Below are positions 44,401 to 54,885 of a stretch of 64,000 bases of DNA, in pieces. Each line of letters starts with the position of its first letter. The stretch's first letter is position 1. A program made the translations under genes and the position numbers. The notes beneath the pieces were generated by a model that saw nothing but the letters and a program-made list of their open reading frames with translations, was not told the origin of the DNA and searched no databases. The stretch lies in assembly GCF_011045215.1 (NCBI RefSeq), contig NZ_CP049201.1, one strand, 5' to 3'. The DNA is from Escherichia coli. GTDB taxonomy: Bacteria; Pseudomonadota; Gammaproteobacteria; Enterobacterales; Enterobacteriaceae.

Positions 44401-44454
44401 TATGATTGTGGTCCGCATTCGGTCATAAACGCACATAACATCATGATCTGTGTG

Positions 44455-44875
44455 GTTTTGTAGGCCGGATAAGGCGTTCACGCCGCATCCGGCGACAGGA
44501 GCCAAATGCCGGATGCAACGCTGGCGCGTTTTATCCGGCCTACAATGAGCTCAACATACTGATTTGTATGGTTTTGTAGGCCGGATAAGGCGTTCACGCC
44601 GCATCCGGCGACAGGAGCCAAATGCCGGATGCAACGCTGGCGCGTTTTATCCGGCCTACAATGAGCTCAACATACTGATTTGTATGGTTTTGTAGGCCGG
44701 ATAAGGCGTTCAAGCCGCATCCGGCGACAGGAGCCAAATGCCGGATGCAACGCTGGCGCGTTTTATCCGGCCTACAATGAGCTCAACATACTGATTTGTA
44801 TGGTTTTGTAGGCCGGATAAGGCGTTCAAGCCGCATCCGGCGACAGGAACCAAATGCCGGATGCGTCTCTGGTTT
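44455..44875. repeat. Tandem BIME/REP array: ~3.6 copies of a 116-bp unit, each holding two inverted REP palindromes
   Basis: The motif gtaggccggataaggcgttca[c/a]gccgcatccggcg recurs at 44460, 44576, 44692 and 44808 (period exactly 116 bp), each followed by the inverted gccggatgcaacgctggcgcgttttatccggcctac. The last unit is cut off at the preA stop codon. Confidence 0.9.
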
Positions 44876-50989: not shown

Positions 50990-51940
50990 ATGCGTGTGTT
51001 ACTGGCACCGATGGAGGGTGTGCTTGATTCTCTGGTGCGTGAATTGCTGACCGAAGTTAACGACTACGATCTGTGCATCACCGAGTTCGTCCGCGTGGTG
51101 GATCAACTGCTGCCGGTAAAAGTCTTTCATCGCATTTGCCCTGAGTTACAAAACGCCAGCCGGACACCATCCGGTACGCTGGTGCGCGTTCAGTTGTTAG
51201 GTCAGTTCCCACAATGGCTGGCAGAGAACGCCGCCCGTGCGGTGGAGTTAGGTTCCTGGGGCGTGGGTCTCAATTGCGGCTGCCCGTCGAAAACGGTCAA
51301 CGGTAGCGGTGGTGGGGCGACGTTACTCAAAGATCCTGAACTCATCTACCAGGGGGCAAAAGCGATGCGTGAAGCTGTACCGGCGCATTTGCCCGTCAGC
51401 GTGAAAGTGCGTCTGGGCTGGGACAGCGGTGAGAAGAAATTTGAAATCGCCGATGCGGTTCAACAGGCTGGCGCTACGGAGCTGGTGGTGCATGGGCGGA
51501 CAAAAGAGCAGGGTTACCGCGCGGAGCATATTGACTGGCAGGCGATTGGCGAGATTCGCCAGCAGCTGAATATTCCGGTGATTGCCAACGGTGAAATCTG
51601 GGACTGGCAGAGTGCGCAACAATGCATGGCGATCAGCGGCTGCGACGCAGTGATGATTGGTCGCGGGGCGCTCAATATTCCCAACCTGAGCCGGGTAGTA
51701 AAATATAACGAACCGCGAATGCCGTGGCCGGAGGTGGTTGCTTTGCTGCAAAAATATACCCGTCTGGAAAAGCAGGGCGATACCGGGTTATATCACGTAG
51801 CGCGGATTAAACAGTGGTTGAGTTATTTGCGTAAAGAATACGATGAAGCAACGGAATTATTTCAGCATGTTCGGGTGTTGAATAATTCCCCTGATATTGC
51901 AAGGGCTATTCAGGCAATTGATATCGATAAGCTGCGATAA
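50990..51940 (+). CDS. dusC: tRNA-dihydrouridine(16) synthase DusC (YohI)
   Basis: ORF 50924..51940; start at [13 protein letters not shown]...; Dus-family TIM barrel with catalytic Cys region (GLNCGCP). Confidence 0.9.
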
Positions 51941-52327
51941 TAGTGGAATCGCAGTTTATCAGAGACAATGAATCGCTTATTCAGCTTCATCATCTTGTTG
52001 CGCTCCTTTCATGAGCTAAGCCACATATTGCCACTGGCGCAAGGAGCGCGCAGGGGGAGGACAATCGCCTCCTCCCCCTGCACCCCCGGGCTCTGGCGAA
52101 CAAAATCGCCGCTGCGCGGTACCTTCAGCTTATCCCCTTCGGCTACCGGGTCGGGCGCGAGGAAACGTCCTTGTAAGACGCGCCCTCAGCCCACATCCAT
52201 GTGGGCTGCCCCGGCCTTCGGGGAACGCTTCAGCAATTTTGACGCCACCAACACCGGAGCTGTTTGCAAATCAAGTACACAAAATATCTAGTTCCTGACC
52301 TGACAACTTATATGTCATATCTGATTT

Positions 52328-52411
52328 TTAAAATATCATCTTAAATACGCCAGTCACCACCAGTAGCCCAATCAGGAAAATAATCAATACAGCCCAGAGT
52401 ATAATTTTCAT
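52328..52411 (-). CDS. yohP: Small membrane protein YohP (27 aa)
   Basis: Found by manual reverse-complement reading: ATG at 52411, MKIILWAVLIIFLIGLLVVTGVFKMIF, stop TAA at 52330-52328. Below the ORF-track length cutoff. Confidence 0.7.
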   Translation of the reverse strand: MKIILWAVLIIFLIGLLVVTGVFKMIF

Positions 52412-52634
52412 TGGCGTTCCTTTATTTGTGAGTGCTGAATAAGTATAGGAAAAAACGAAGCCCTTTGCCGTTATCCATAAACGATTAAGATAAATCGGAA
52501 GATATCATTCGCTTAGTGTATATTTTTCTGGATATGTCGTTTTATTGCTACTGATGTATTGCCACGCGAAACTAAAAAATATATCGCAACACACGGTAAT
52601 CTCCGCGCACCTTTTCTTACCTGATTATTCCCCC

Positions 52635-54071
52635 ATGAATCGTGATTCCTTTTATCCAGCCATCGCCTGTTTTCCGCTGTTACTGATGCTGACCGGGTGT
52701 GCGCCTATGCATGAAACCCGCCAGGCGTTAAGCCAGCAAACGCCCGCTGCACAAGTTGATACCGCATTACCCACGGCGCTGAAAAATGGTTGGCCAGACA
52801 GCCAATGGTGGCTGGAGTATCACGATAATCAGCTCACTTCCTTAATTAACAATGCACTACAGAACGCACCGGATATGAAGGTGGCTGAACAGCGCATTCA
52901 GCTAGCTGAAGCCCAGGCGAAGGCAGTTGCTACTCAGGATGGTCCGCAGATCGACTTTTCTGCGGATATGGAGCGGCAAAAAATGTCGGCAGAAGGGCTA
53001 ATGGGGCCGTTTGCTCTGAACGATCCGGCCGCAGGTACGACCGGTCCGTGGTACACCAACGGAACTTTTGGCTTAACGGCGGGCTGGCATCTCGATATCT
53101 GGGGAAAGAATCGGGCGGAGGTTACTGCCCGCCTGGGTACGGTTAAAGCACGGGCGGCGGAACGCGAGCAAACCCGCCAATTGCTGGCTGGCAGCGTAGC
53201 CCGCCTGTACTGGGAGTGGCAAACCCAGGCGGCGTTAAACACGGTCTTGCGGCAAATCGAAAAAGAGCAGAACACCATTATCGCGACCGATCGCCAGCTA
53301 TATCAGAACGGGATTACTTCTTCAGTTGAAGGTGTGGAAACCGATATTAATGCCAGCAAAACCCGGCAGCAGCTCAACGATGTCGCGGGGAAAATGAAAA
53401 TTATTGAGGCACGGTTAAGCGCACTTACAAATCACCAGACAAAGTCATTGAAGCTTAAACCGGTCGCGTTGCCGAAAGTGGCAAGCCAGCTTCCTGATGA
53501 ACTGGGGTACTCCTTACTGGCCCGGCGGGCAGATTTGCAGGCGGCGCACTGGTACGTTGAGTCATCGCTAAGCACCATTGATGCGGCAAAAGCGGCATTT
53601 TATCCTGACATCAACCTGATGGCCTTTCTGCAACAGGATGCGTTGCACTTAAGCGATCTGTTCCGTCATTCCGCGCAGCAAATGGGTGTTACGGCAGGCC
53701 TGACGCTACCCATTTTCGATAGTGGTCGTCTTAACGCCAATCTCGATATCGCAAAAGCCGAAAGCAACTTGTCTATCGCCAGCTACAACAAAGCGGTGGT
53801 TGAAGCGGTAAATGACGTGGCGCGGGCGGCCAGCCAGGTTCAGACACTGGCGGAGAAAAACCAGCATCAGGCGCAAATTGAGCACGATGCCTTGCGTGTG
53901 GTAGGTCTTGCGCAGGCGCGCTTTAACGCGGGCATCATTGCTGGTTCCCGCGTCAGCGAAGCCAGAATCCCCGCGCTGCGTGAGCGGGCCAATGGCCTGT
54001 TATTGCAAGGGCAGTGGCTGGATGCCTCCATTCAACTCACTGGTGCGTTGGGCGGGGGTTACAAACGCTGA
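52635..54071 (+). CDS. mdtQ: Outer membrane efflux lipoprotein MdtQ (TolC/NodT OMF family), apparently intact
   Basis: ORF 52545..54071; likely start at ATG 52635 (MNRDSFYPAIACFPLLLMLTGC, lipobox LTGC), giving 478 aa; OMF coiled-coil/beta-barrel repeat architecture. Confidence 0.8.
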   Translation: MNRDSFYPAIACFPLLLMLTGCAPMHETRQALSQQTPAAQVDTALPTALKNGWPDSQWWLEYHDNQLTSLINNALQNAPDMKVAEQRIQLAEAQAKAVATQDGPQIDFSADMERQKMSAEGLMGPFALNDPAAGTTGPWYTNGTFGLTAGWHLDIWGKNRAEVTARLGTVKARAAEREQTRQLLAGSVARLYWEWQTQAALNTVLRQIEKEQNTIIATDRQLYQNGITSSVEGVETDINASKTRQQLNDVAGKMKIIEARLSALTNHQTKSLKLKPVALPKVASQLPDELGYSLLARRADLQAAHWYVESSLSTIDAAKAAFYPDINLMAFLQQDALHLSDLFRHSAQQMGVTAGLTLPIFDSGRLNANLDIAKAESNLSIASYNKAVVEAVNDVARAASQVQTLAEKNQHQAQIEHDALRVVGLAQARFNAGIIAGSRVSEARIPALRERANGLLLQGQWLDASIQLTGALGGGYKR

Positions 54072-54123
54072 TGATATGTGCCTTCTATACTTAACGTTTA
54101 TTCAGCGTTAAGTGGAGAACTCG

Positions 54124-54885
54124 ATGGCACAGGTCGCGATAATTACCGCCTCCGATTCGGGGATCGGCAAAGAGTGCGCGTTATTACTGGCGCAGCAGGG
54201 GTTTGATATTGGCATTACCTGGCACTCAGATGAAGAAGGGGCAAAAGATACCGCGCGTGAGGTAGTTAGCCACGGCGTACGTGCGGAGATCGTGCAGCTG
54301 GATCTCGGTAAACTGCCAGAAGGTGCGCAGGCGCTGGAGAAACTCATTCAACGGCTGGGGCGTATTGATGTGCTGGTGAATAATGCGGGCGCAATGACCA
54401 AAGCGCCGTTTCTTGATATGGCTTTCGATGAGTGGCGCAAGATTTTTACCGTTGATGTCGATGGTGCATTTTTATGCTCACAAATTGCGGCCCGCCAGAT
54501 GGTGAAACAAGGGCAGGGCGGTCGCATCATCAACATTACGTCGGTACATGAACATACGCCGCTGCCGGATGCCAGCGCCTACACAGCCGCTAAACATGCG
54601 CTCGGTGGGTTAACCAAAGCGATGGCGCTGGAGCTGGTCAGGCATAAGATTTTGGTGAACGCAGTCGCGCCTGGGGCGATCGCCACGCCAATGAATGGCA
54701 TGGATGACAGCGACGTGAAGCCCGACGCGGAGCCTTCGATTCCTCTGCGGCGTTTTGGTGCAACGCATGAGATTGCCAGCCTGGTAGCGTGGCTGTGCTC
54801 AGAGGGCGCAAATTACACCACCGGGCAGTCGTTGATAGTGGATGGCGGCTTTATGTTGGCGAATCCGCAGTTCAACCCAGAATAG
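54124..54885 (+). CDS. yohF: Short-chain dehydrogenase/reductase YohF
   Basis: ORF 54112..54885; start at MAQVAIITASDSGIGKE (Rossmann TGxxxGxG-like), with a YxxxK catalytic motif (YTAAK). Confidence 0.88.
   Translation: MAQVAIITASDSGIGKECALLLAQQGFDIGITWHSDEEGAKDTAREVVSHGVRAEIVQLDLGKLPEGAQALEKLIQRLGRIDVLVNNAGAMTKAPFLDMAFDEWRKIFTVDVDGAFLCSQIAARQMVKQGQGGRIINITSVHEHTPLPDASAYTAAKHALGGLTKAMALELVRHKILVNAVAPGAIATPMNGMDDSDVKPDAEPSIPLRRFGATHEIASLVAWLCSEGANYTTGQSLIVDGGFMLANPQFNPE

What the first reader, a model, noticed from the sequence alone, without database searches (positions are those of the whole stretch)
52635..54071. mdtQ is a complete outer-membrane efflux lipoprotein gene here, with no adjacent pump partners
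An uninterrupted 478-codon OMF-family ORF with a lipoprotein signal peptide (lipobox LTGC) is present. From memory, mdtQ in K-12 MG1655 is annotated as a frameshifted pseudogene, so this window likely comes from a non-K-12 lineage or a repaired allele. No RND/MFS pump or periplasmic adaptor gene is adjacent (neighbours are yohP and yohF), so this would be an orphan outer-membrane channel.
Basis: partly seen in the sequence, partly recalled or inferred. Interest (0 to 1): 0.33.

Follow-up and report, generated by a model that had tools for sequence, protein, structure and literature searches.

The report
Intact orphan outer-membrane channel gene mdtQ
This is the normal, intact form of the E. 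coli gene mdtQ, which encodes a TolC-like outer-membrane exit channel with no pump genes beside it; only the K-12 laboratory lineage carries the broken copy, and all of this is already published.

Summary
Window 52635-54071 (+) is an uninterrupted 478-codon ORF with a lipoprotein signal peptide (LTGC, Cys22). It matches NCBI's MdtQ model end to end (1021 bits).

K-12 mdtQ differs by a 1-bp deletion in the A5 run at 52782-52786 (codons 50-51), which truncates the product to 69 aa.

The intact A5 allele is the norm. It is exact in 4599 of 5426 complete E. coli genomes, against 355 for the K-12 A4 allele.

The gene is orphan. No adaptor, RND, FUSC or ABC-exporter gene lies anywhere in the 64-kb window. 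The same orphan position (yohP | mdtQ | yohF/yohD) is kept in Salmonella, Citrobacter and Buttiauxella.

The gene is under purifying selection (dN/dS 0.06-0.13). The predicted fold is a standard outer-membrane-factor protomer, closest to VceC.

A 2025 review (PMC11762307) already states that mdtQ is encoded independently and conserved in the E. coli core genome despite its pseudogene annotation. The finding is therefore ordinary.

One modest addition: its nearest non-orphan relatives sit in FUSC-type (MdtNOP-like) or MFS-type operons, never RND in this sample. That hints at partners such as AaeAB, whose outer-membrane component is unknown.

The parts
52635..54071 (+). mdtQ (yohG) coding sequence, 478 aa plus stop; outer-membrane-factor (OMF, NodT-type) lipoprotein
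   Evidence: ORF intact. NCBIfam MdtQ equivalog 1021 bits, full length. Two Pfam OEP repeats. AF2 model pLDDT 83 with OMF fold; Foldseek top hits VceC, CusC, OprJ, OprN, OprM with TM 0.74-0.85.
52635..52700 (+). Lipoprotein signal peptide and lipobox (residues 1-22; L19-T20-G21-C22; +2 Ala)
   Evidence: Read from the sequence. Cys22 is invariant in 50 homologues. The -2 position varies among A/S/G/T, so Thr is tolerated; K-12 and PapM-32-1 have Ala.
52782..52786 (+). A5 run (codons K50-N51). One A is missing here in K-12, giving a 69-aa truncated product
   Evidence: MAFFT alignment with K-12 DHB4 mdtQ, annotated 'frameshifted'. The 69-nt A5 context is exact in 4599/5426 genomes; the K-12 A4 context is exact in 355.
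52552..52579 (+). Conserved block in the yohP-mdtQ intergenic region (GATGTATTGCCACGCGAAACTAAAAAAT), 56-83 nt upstream of the ATG; candidate promoter or regulator site
   Evidence: In a five-sequence alignment (window, K-12, Salmonella, Citrobacter, Buttiauxella), TGTATTGCCAC (52555-52565) and CTAAA are invariant while the flanks diverge. Function not tested. The consensus promoter scan found nothing here.
52328..52411 (-). yohP, 27-aa small membrane protein, divergent upstream neighbour
   Evidence: Pfam YohP 50.6 bits; annotated yohP in K-12, FG92-1 and PapM-32-1.
54124..54885 (+). yohF, SDR oxidoreductase, 52 nt downstream on the same strand; possibly co-transcribed
   Evidence: Pfam adh_short_C2 203.7 bits. 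No terminator-like site between mdtQ and yohF. yohF follows mdtQ in Escherichia, Salmonella and Buttiauxella but is absent in Citrobacter.

Best explanation
The ORF is the ancestral, functional allele of mdtQ (yohG).

Shown: it encodes a precursor with a lipobox. By the established Lgt/LspA/Lnt and Lol pathways (inferred, not tested here), this precursor would be acylated on Cys22 and sorted to the outer membrane, since residue +2 is Ala and not Asp.

Predicted: each protomer has the TolC/OprM-type fold, with four beta strands plus long alpha hairpins. By analogy with solved OMFs, three protomers would form a beta-barrel pore with a periplasmic alpha-barrel tunnel.

Shown: the gene stands alone. 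It has done so at the same chromosomal position since before Escherichia, Salmonella, Citrobacter and Buttiauxella diverged, under purifying selection.

Inferred: like TolC, it serves as the exit duct for inner-membrane pump and adaptor pairs encoded elsewhere. Its closest non-orphan relatives are the last gene of YtcA-adaptor-FUSC-OMF operons (the MdtNOP type) or sit with MFS/EmrA-type pumps. The most likely partner class is therefore pumps with AaeA/EmrA-type adaptors rather than RND pumps.

The K-12 pseudogene is a recent, lineage-specific 1-bp deletion in an A5 run.
For: Identity and intactness.

K-12 lesion.

Allele frequencies: the locus is present in 5423/5426 genomes; A5 is exact in 4599 and A4 in 355.

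Purifying selection: dN/dS is 0.13, 0.11 and 0.10 within E. coli, and 0.07 and 0.06 against Salmonella and Citrobacter.

Conserved orphan synteny: Salmonella, Citrobacter, Buttiauxella at 57-59% identity.

No partner genes in the window.

Fold. The closest solved chain by sequence is VceC (1.5e-39), which from my own knowledge belongs to an MFS-type pump.

Closest paralogue model: MdtP family, 354.8 bits, against AdeK 124, CusC-type 99 and TolC 53.

Contexts of the nearest 50%-cluster representatives: FUSC-linked in 4 of 5 informative cases (P0125, P0127, P0128, P0129), MFS plus EmrA-like adaptor in 1 (P0131), RND in 0.

Literature: the K. pneumoniae orthologue YohG was detected in an outer-membrane proteome (PMC4404324). 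Salmonella yohG transcripts rise in a ciprofloxacin-selected strain and under hypochlorite (PMC5381912, PMC9065344). Null mutants are reported as slightly more susceptible to puromycin, acriflavine and tetraphenylarsonium (cited in PMC11762307).
Against: No partner has been demonstrated, and none can be shown with these tools.

The gene is dispensable. K-12 lives without it. An IS1 insertion (H27) and a deletion (H40) occur in natural isolates. Independent truncations are reported in S. Typhi and Paratyphi A (PMC9241588).

No Shine-Dalgarno sequence precedes the ATG (ttattcccccATG), and no consensus sigma-70 promoter was found, so expression may be low or conditional.

The partner-class inference rests on only five informative neighbourhoods of relatives at 35-42% identity. 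OMFs are known to be promiscuous.

I could not read the original paper behind the published susceptibility phenotype. If that work was done in K-12, the gene was already frameshifted.
Confidence: 0.8

Rival explanations
1. mdtQ is a dispensable relic on its way to being lost. The intact ORF here is just a copy that has not yet been hit, with no current physiological role.
For: K-12 frameshift. IS1 insertion in strain AVS0051 and loss of the gene in CFSAN061769 (H27 and H40). Independent truncations in S. Typhi and Paratyphi A (PMC9241588). No SD sequence and no consensus promoter. Only mild reported phenotypes (PMC11762307).
Against: dN/dS is 0.06-0.13 across and within genera. The ORF stays at a fixed position and at essentially the same length (478-482 aa) across four genera. 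At least 85% of complete E. coli genomes carry the exact intact context. The protein was detected in the Klebsiella outer membrane (PMC4404324). Cys22 and other invariant family residues are retained.
Confidence: 0.1
2. MdtQ is a back-up exit duct for RND pumps (AcrAB, AcrEF, MdtABC and others). It would substitute for TolC under particular conditions, as OprM-family channels do in Pseudomonas.
For: Fold and sequence similarity to the RND-associated OMFs OprM, OprJ, OprN, CusC and SilC. OMF promiscuity is well established (general knowledge; PMC8277102). yohG is up-regulated together with RND pump genes in a ciprofloxacin-selected Salmonella (PMC5381912).
Against: None of five informative neighbourhoods of its nearest relatives contains an RND pump. 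The best paralogue model is MdtP, which is FUSC-type, and the best solved relative is VceC, which is MFS-type. From established knowledge, tolC mutants of E. coli strains are broadly hypersusceptible, so the other OMFs do not noticeably compensate; I did not verify this for intact-mdtQ strains.
Confidence: 0.1

Closest known systems
MdtQ/YohG of E. coli (non-K-12 strains), Salmonella, Citrobacter and Klebsiella (NCBIfam NF008524)
   Same: Full-length equivalog match at 1021 bits. Same length, same lipobox position, and the same yohP | mdtQ | yohF neighbourhood. 99% amino-acid identity to other E. coli alleles and 81% to Salmonella and Citrobacter.
   Different: Only allelic differences. T20 replaces the more usual A20 in the lipobox, and K82, R206 and H417 differ from the three E. 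coli alleles compared, though H417 is shared with E. albertii, Salmonella and Citrobacter. All fall at variable columns.
K-12 mdtQ pseudogene (formerly split as yohG/yohH)
   Same: Same locus, 98.6% nucleotide identity, otherwise an open frame throughout.
   Different: K-12 lacks one A of the A5 run at window 52782-52786, giving a 69-aa truncated product. The window copy is intact.
MdtP of the ytcA-mdtNOP operon (closest E. coli paralogue) and FUSC-linked OMFs in other bacteria
   Same: Second-best NCBIfam model (354.8 bits). NodT-type lipoprotein of similar length. The nearest relatives at 35-42% identity are the last gene of YtcA-adaptor-FUSC-OMF operons.
   Different: The score is below the MdtP cut-off of 597, so this is a paralogue, not a member. 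mdtQ has no adjacent adaptor or FUSC pump.
TolC of E. coli
   Same: An orphan-type OMF that must use pumps encoded elsewhere. Same overall fold (TM about 0.68-0.77).
   Different: 12-13% sequence identity. TolC is not a lipoprotein (established knowledge). The TolC-subfamily model scores 53 against a cut-off of 225. TolC's partners are known; MdtQ's are not.
VceC of Vibrio cholerae (PDB 1YC9)
   Same: Closest solved structure by both sequence (1.5e-39) and fold (TM 0.85 normalised to target, 25% identity).
   Different: From my own knowledge, VceC is encoded with its MFS pump and adaptor in vceCAB. mdtQ is alone.

Membership tests
Outer membrane factor family (Pfam OEP PF02321; TC 1.B.17), NodT lipoprotein subfamily (TIGR01845) | Two tandem OEP repeats spanning the mature protein | tested here: met
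   PF02321 at 105 bits with 2 stretches. TIGR01845 at 274.1 bits against a cut-off of 210, covering 16-475.
Outer membrane factor family, NodT lipoprotein subfamily | N-terminal signal peptide ending in a lipobox with an invariant Cys | tested here: met
   LTGC at residues 19-22. The Cys column is invariant in 50 homologues. Actual acylation was not tested.
Outer membrane factor family | TolC/OprM-type protomer fold (beta strands plus long alpha hairpins) | tested here: met
   AF2 model with pLDDT 83.1 and pTM 0.77. Foldseek probability 1.00 to VceC, CusC, OprJ, OprN, SilC, OprM and TolC. This is a prediction, not an experimental structure.
Outer membrane factor family | Homotrimer in the outer membrane that docks a periplasmic adaptor of an inner-membrane pump | not testable with these tools
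   Indirect only. The Klebsiella orthologue is in an outer-membrane proteome (PMC4404324). No partner is known (PMC11762307).
MdtQ equivalog (NCBIfam NF008524) | Full-length score above the curated cut-off, plus the conserved chromosomal position | tested here: met
   1021.2 bits against a cut-off of 650, covering 1-478/478. yohP | mdtQ | yohF-yohD-yohC-pbpG-dld synteny.
MdtP family (NCBIfam NF007390) | Score above the cut-off; encoded downstream of mdtN (adaptor) and mdtO (FUSC pump) | tested here: not met
   354.8 bits, below the cut-off of 597. No FUSC or adaptor homologue in the window.
TolC subfamily (TIGR01844) | Score above the cut-off; non-lipoprotein | tested here: not met
   53.4 bits, below the cut-off of 225.15. 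A lipobox is present.

The most novel reading that the evidence does not exclude
MdtQ is the missing outer-membrane component of the E. coli FUSC-type pumps that lack an OMF gene of their own. These are AaeAB, listed as 'AaeAB-?' in PMC8277102, and, from my own knowledge, YdhIJK.

It would descend from an MdtNOP-like operon whose channel gene became detached. It has been kept as a stand-alone gene across Enterobacteriaceae, possibly controlled through the conserved TGTATTGCCAC...CTAAA block upstream.

If so, work on these pumps in K-12 has been done in a natural mdtQ-null background.
Probability: 0.2. Interest if true: 0.45.

Novelty: already known. Interest (0 to 1): 0.1.

Why it matters
The finding itself matters little. 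It restates published knowledge: intact mdtQ is the norm, K-12 is the exception, and the gene is a stand-alone TolC homologue of unknown partner (PMC11762307).

Its practical value is a reminder that K-12 is a natural mdtQ null. Efflux studies in K-12 cannot reveal MdtQ-dependent export.

The small addition made here is that its nearest pump-linked relatives are FUSC-type or MFS-type, not RND. That narrows the candidate partners and makes the open question 'what does MdtQ work with?' more directly testable in a strain carrying the intact allele.

Tried and rejected
- Rfam scan of 51900-54200 at E<=1: only a sub-threshold TwoAYGGAY hit (25 bits against a gathering score of 43) inside the TRIP1c repeat. 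Treated as chance.
- Consensus promoter and terminator scan: 2 promoter-like sites against 2.5 expected, none near the conserved block, and no terminator between mdtQ and yohF.
- RNA fold of the leader and start region: less stable than shuffles (z = +1.55), so no leader structure.
- I compared the conserved upstream block by eye with the MarA/SoxS/Rob box consensus from memory. About 10 of 14 specified positions match. This is too weak to claim and I did not pursue it.
- Transcriptional slippage rescuing the K-12 allele: rejected, because an A4 run is far shorter than known slippage tracts (established knowledge).
- 'Repaired allele' origin: rejected, because the intact state is shared with other genera and with the great majority of E. 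coli.
- Neighbourhoods of P0121, P0126 and P0132 were uninformative because the metagenome contigs are 2-3 kb.
- The original papers, Sulavik 2001 (my guessed id PMC90435) and Van Dyk 2004 (PMC523213), are not held. Their content is cited only through reviews.
- Four genera of synteny were enough for an ordinary finding.

Full report
**1. The observation**

The ORF list and the raw sequence show an uninterrupted frame from the ATG at 52635 to the stop ending at 54071. That is 478 codons plus the stop.

The N-terminus is MNRDSFYPAIACFPLLLMLTGC. This is a short charged n-region, a hydrophobic core and the lipobox L-T-G-C, with Cys at residue 22 and Ala at +2.

Pfam finds two OEP repeats. NCBI's MdtQ equivalog model matches residues 1-478 of 478 at 1021 bits, against a cut-off of 650. 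The next models are far weaker:

| NCBIfam model | Score (bits) | Cut-off (bits) |
|---|---|---|
| MdtQ equivalog (NF008524) | 1021 | 650 |
| MdtP family | 354.8 | 597 |
| NodT subfamily (TIGR01845) | 274 | 210 |
| AdeK | 124 | 900 |
| CusC-type | 99 | 598 |
| TolC subfamily | 53 | 225 |

The description is therefore accurate.

**2. The K-12 comparison**

In K-12 strain DHB4 the gene is annotated 'frameshifted' and is 1436 bp long. Alignment shows a single indel. K-12 has four A's where the window has five, at window 52782-52786 (codons K50-N51). The K-12 product therefore ends after 69 residues.

Otherwise there are 22 substitutions, 5 of them non-synonymous. The rest of the K-12 frame is still open, so the lesion is recent.

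A 69-nt stretch around the A5 run is exact in 4599 of 5426 complete E. coli genomes. The K-12 A4 version is exact in 355; the first examples listed are ER1709, MT102 and PS200.

The locus is present in 5423 of 5426 genomes. Other independent inactivations do exist: an IS1 insertion (H27) and a deletion (H40).

The intact state is thus ancestral and the majority state. 'Repaired allele' is not needed.

**3. Where the window comes from**

The window is collinear with E. coli PapM-32-1 from radD to yehY at about 99.3% identity. It is 98.6% identical to K-12 across mdtQ. No complete genome in the collection exceeds 99.2-99.3% identity. It is a non-K-12 E. coli-type chromosome.

**4. Orphan status**

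- The annotated collinear genome has no periplasmic adaptor, RND, FUSC or ABC exporter in the whole 64 kb. It has only the single-component MFS genes bcr and setB, more than 30 kb away.
- tblastn of FUSC pumps and AaeA-type adaptors against the window finds nothing.
- The same stand-alone arrangement occurs in other genera. The order yohP | mdtQ | yohF, yohD, yohC, pbpG, dld, bglX is kept in Salmonella and, with a few extra inserted genes, in Buttiauxella (57-59% identity). In Citrobacter a methyltransferase replaces yohP and yohF is absent.

The gene has therefore been orphan since before these genera diverged.

**5. Is it functional?**

Pairwise Nei-Gojobori dN/dS values:

| Comparison with the window allele | dN/dS |
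|---|---|
| FG92-1 (E. coli) | 0.13 |
| PapM-32-1 (E. coli) | 0.11 |
| K-12, repaired in silico | 0.10 |
| Salmonella | 0.07 |
| Citrobacter | 0.06 |

These values indicate clear purifying selection.

- The lipobox Cys is invariant in 50 homologues. The window's Thr at -2 lies within the A/S/G/T range seen in those homologues.
- An AlphaFold2 model (pLDDT 83, pTM 0.77) has the expected four strands and long helical hairpins.
- The model matches VceC, CusC, OprJ, OprN, SilC and OprM at probability 1.00 with TM 0.74-0.85. TolC matches more weakly.
- By sequence, the closest solved chain is VceC at 1.5e-39.
- In the literature, the Klebsiella orthologue was found in an outer-membrane proteome (PMC4404324). 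Salmonella yohG transcripts rise in a ciprofloxacin-selected strain and under hypochlorite (PMC5381912, PMC9065344).

Against a strong role:

- The gene is dispensable. K-12 lacks it, and truncations are reported in S. Typhi and Paratyphi A (PMC9241588).
- There is no Shine-Dalgarno sequence before the ATG.
- No consensus promoter was found.

**6. How it most likely works**

Shown: it is an intact OMF lipoprotein gene, orphan and under constraint.

Inferred from established OMF biology: the precursor is acylated on Cys22 and sorted by Lol to the outer membrane. There it trimerises into a channel-tunnel and docks the adaptors of pumps encoded elsewhere.

To narrow the partner class, I looked at the neighbourhoods of the nearest 50%-identity cluster representatives.

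| Representative | Identity to MdtQ | Neighbourhood |
|---|---|---|
| P0127 | 42% | last gene of a YtcA-adaptor-FUSC-OMF operon (MdtNOP architecture) |
| P0128 | 35% | last gene of a YtcA-adaptor-FUSC-OMF operon |
| P0129 | 37% | last gene of a YtcA-adaptor-FUSC-OMF operon |
| P0125 | 41% | directly follows a FUSC pump |
| P0131 | 39% | between an MFS gene and an EmrA-like adaptor |

None of the five is RND-linked. The best paralogue model is MdtP and the best solved relative is VceC. This points to pumps with AaeA/EmrA-type adaptors.

The Chem Rev review lists 'AaeAB-?' for E. coli, meaning the outer-membrane partner of AaeAB is unknown (PMC8277102). MdtQ serving AaeAB, and from my own knowledge YdhIJK, is the most novel reading not excluded. 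I give it about 0.2. It rests on five neighbourhoods of distant relatives and no direct evidence.

**7. Regulation**

The yohP-mdtQ intergenic region contains one sharply conserved block. TGTATTGCCAC (52555-52565) followed by CTAAA is invariant in a five-sequence alignment (window, K-12, Salmonella, Citrobacter, Buttiauxella), while the flanks diverge.

It could be a -35 element (TTGCCA) or a regulator site. I did not test it. The leader is unstructured, and Rfam finds nothing significant.

yohF starts 52 nt downstream with no terminator-like site between the two genes. It may be co-transcribed, but it is absent from Citrobacter.

**8. Comparison with what is known, and verdict**

[quoted passage not shown] A 2025 paper on YohP also calls the K-12 neighbour 'the mdtQ pseudogene' (PMC12719787).

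Interest is low (0.1) and novelty is 'already known'.

The only new element is the FUSC/MFS-type context of its nearest relatives. This makes the partner question a little more testable in an intact-allele strain.

Noticed in passing
window ~6410 (junction), within yejE/yejB: The window lacks about 997 bp present in E. coli PapM-32-1. The missing stretch removes the 5' part of yejE and the 3' end of yejB, two permease genes of the YejABEF transporter annotated as the microcin C importer, and is not a multiple of 3. The junction was found contiguous in none of the 5426 complete E. coli genomes. All carry the two halves about 1 kb apart, except one strain (razor3) with a different rearrangement about 0.5 kb apart.
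   Followed up: partly
window 44437-44864 (mglC-preA intergenic): Tandem array of a 116-bp unit, 3.7 copies at 98% identity, built from REP/BIME-like palindromes (GCCGGATAAGGCG...). The closest genome has two fewer copies, which accounts for the 232-bp length difference.
   Followed up: partly
window ~51975-52285 (dusC-yohP intergenic): Multi-copy repeat with a median of 3 places per E. coli genome. It corresponds to the published TRIP1c repeat, which lies 43 bp after yohI/dusC and 363 bp before yohG/mdtQ and is reported to mediate chromosomal rearrangements (PMC10888264). A spurious 107-codon ORF (51968-52291) and a sub-threshold Rfam TwoAYGGAY hit lie inside it.
   Followed up: partly
window 52552-52579: Sharply conserved block upstream of mdtQ. 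TGTATTGCCAC and CTAAA are invariant across Escherichia, Salmonella, Citrobacter and Buttiauxella, in an otherwise divergent intergenic region. The binding factor is unknown.
   Followed up: partly
L003/L004 (Salmonella) and L005/L006 (Citrobacter), upstream of dusC: Salmonella and Citrobacter carry a gene cluster between yohJ and dusC that is absent from the E. coli window. It encodes a LysR regulator, an MFS transporter, a cupin dioxygenase, an FAA hydrolase, a GST-like isomerase and an FAD monooxygenase, a set that looks like a gentisate or 3-hydroxybenzoate degradation pathway. It encodes no periplasmic adaptor, so it is not an efflux partner for mdtQ.
   Followed up: no
window 52692 (codon 20 of mdtQ): The lipobox is LTGC here and in goose isolate FG92-1, but LAGC in K-12, PapM-32-1, E. 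albertii and Salmonella (MAGC in Citrobacter). Thr at -2 lies within the range seen in homologues. No functional consequence is expected.
   Followed up: yes
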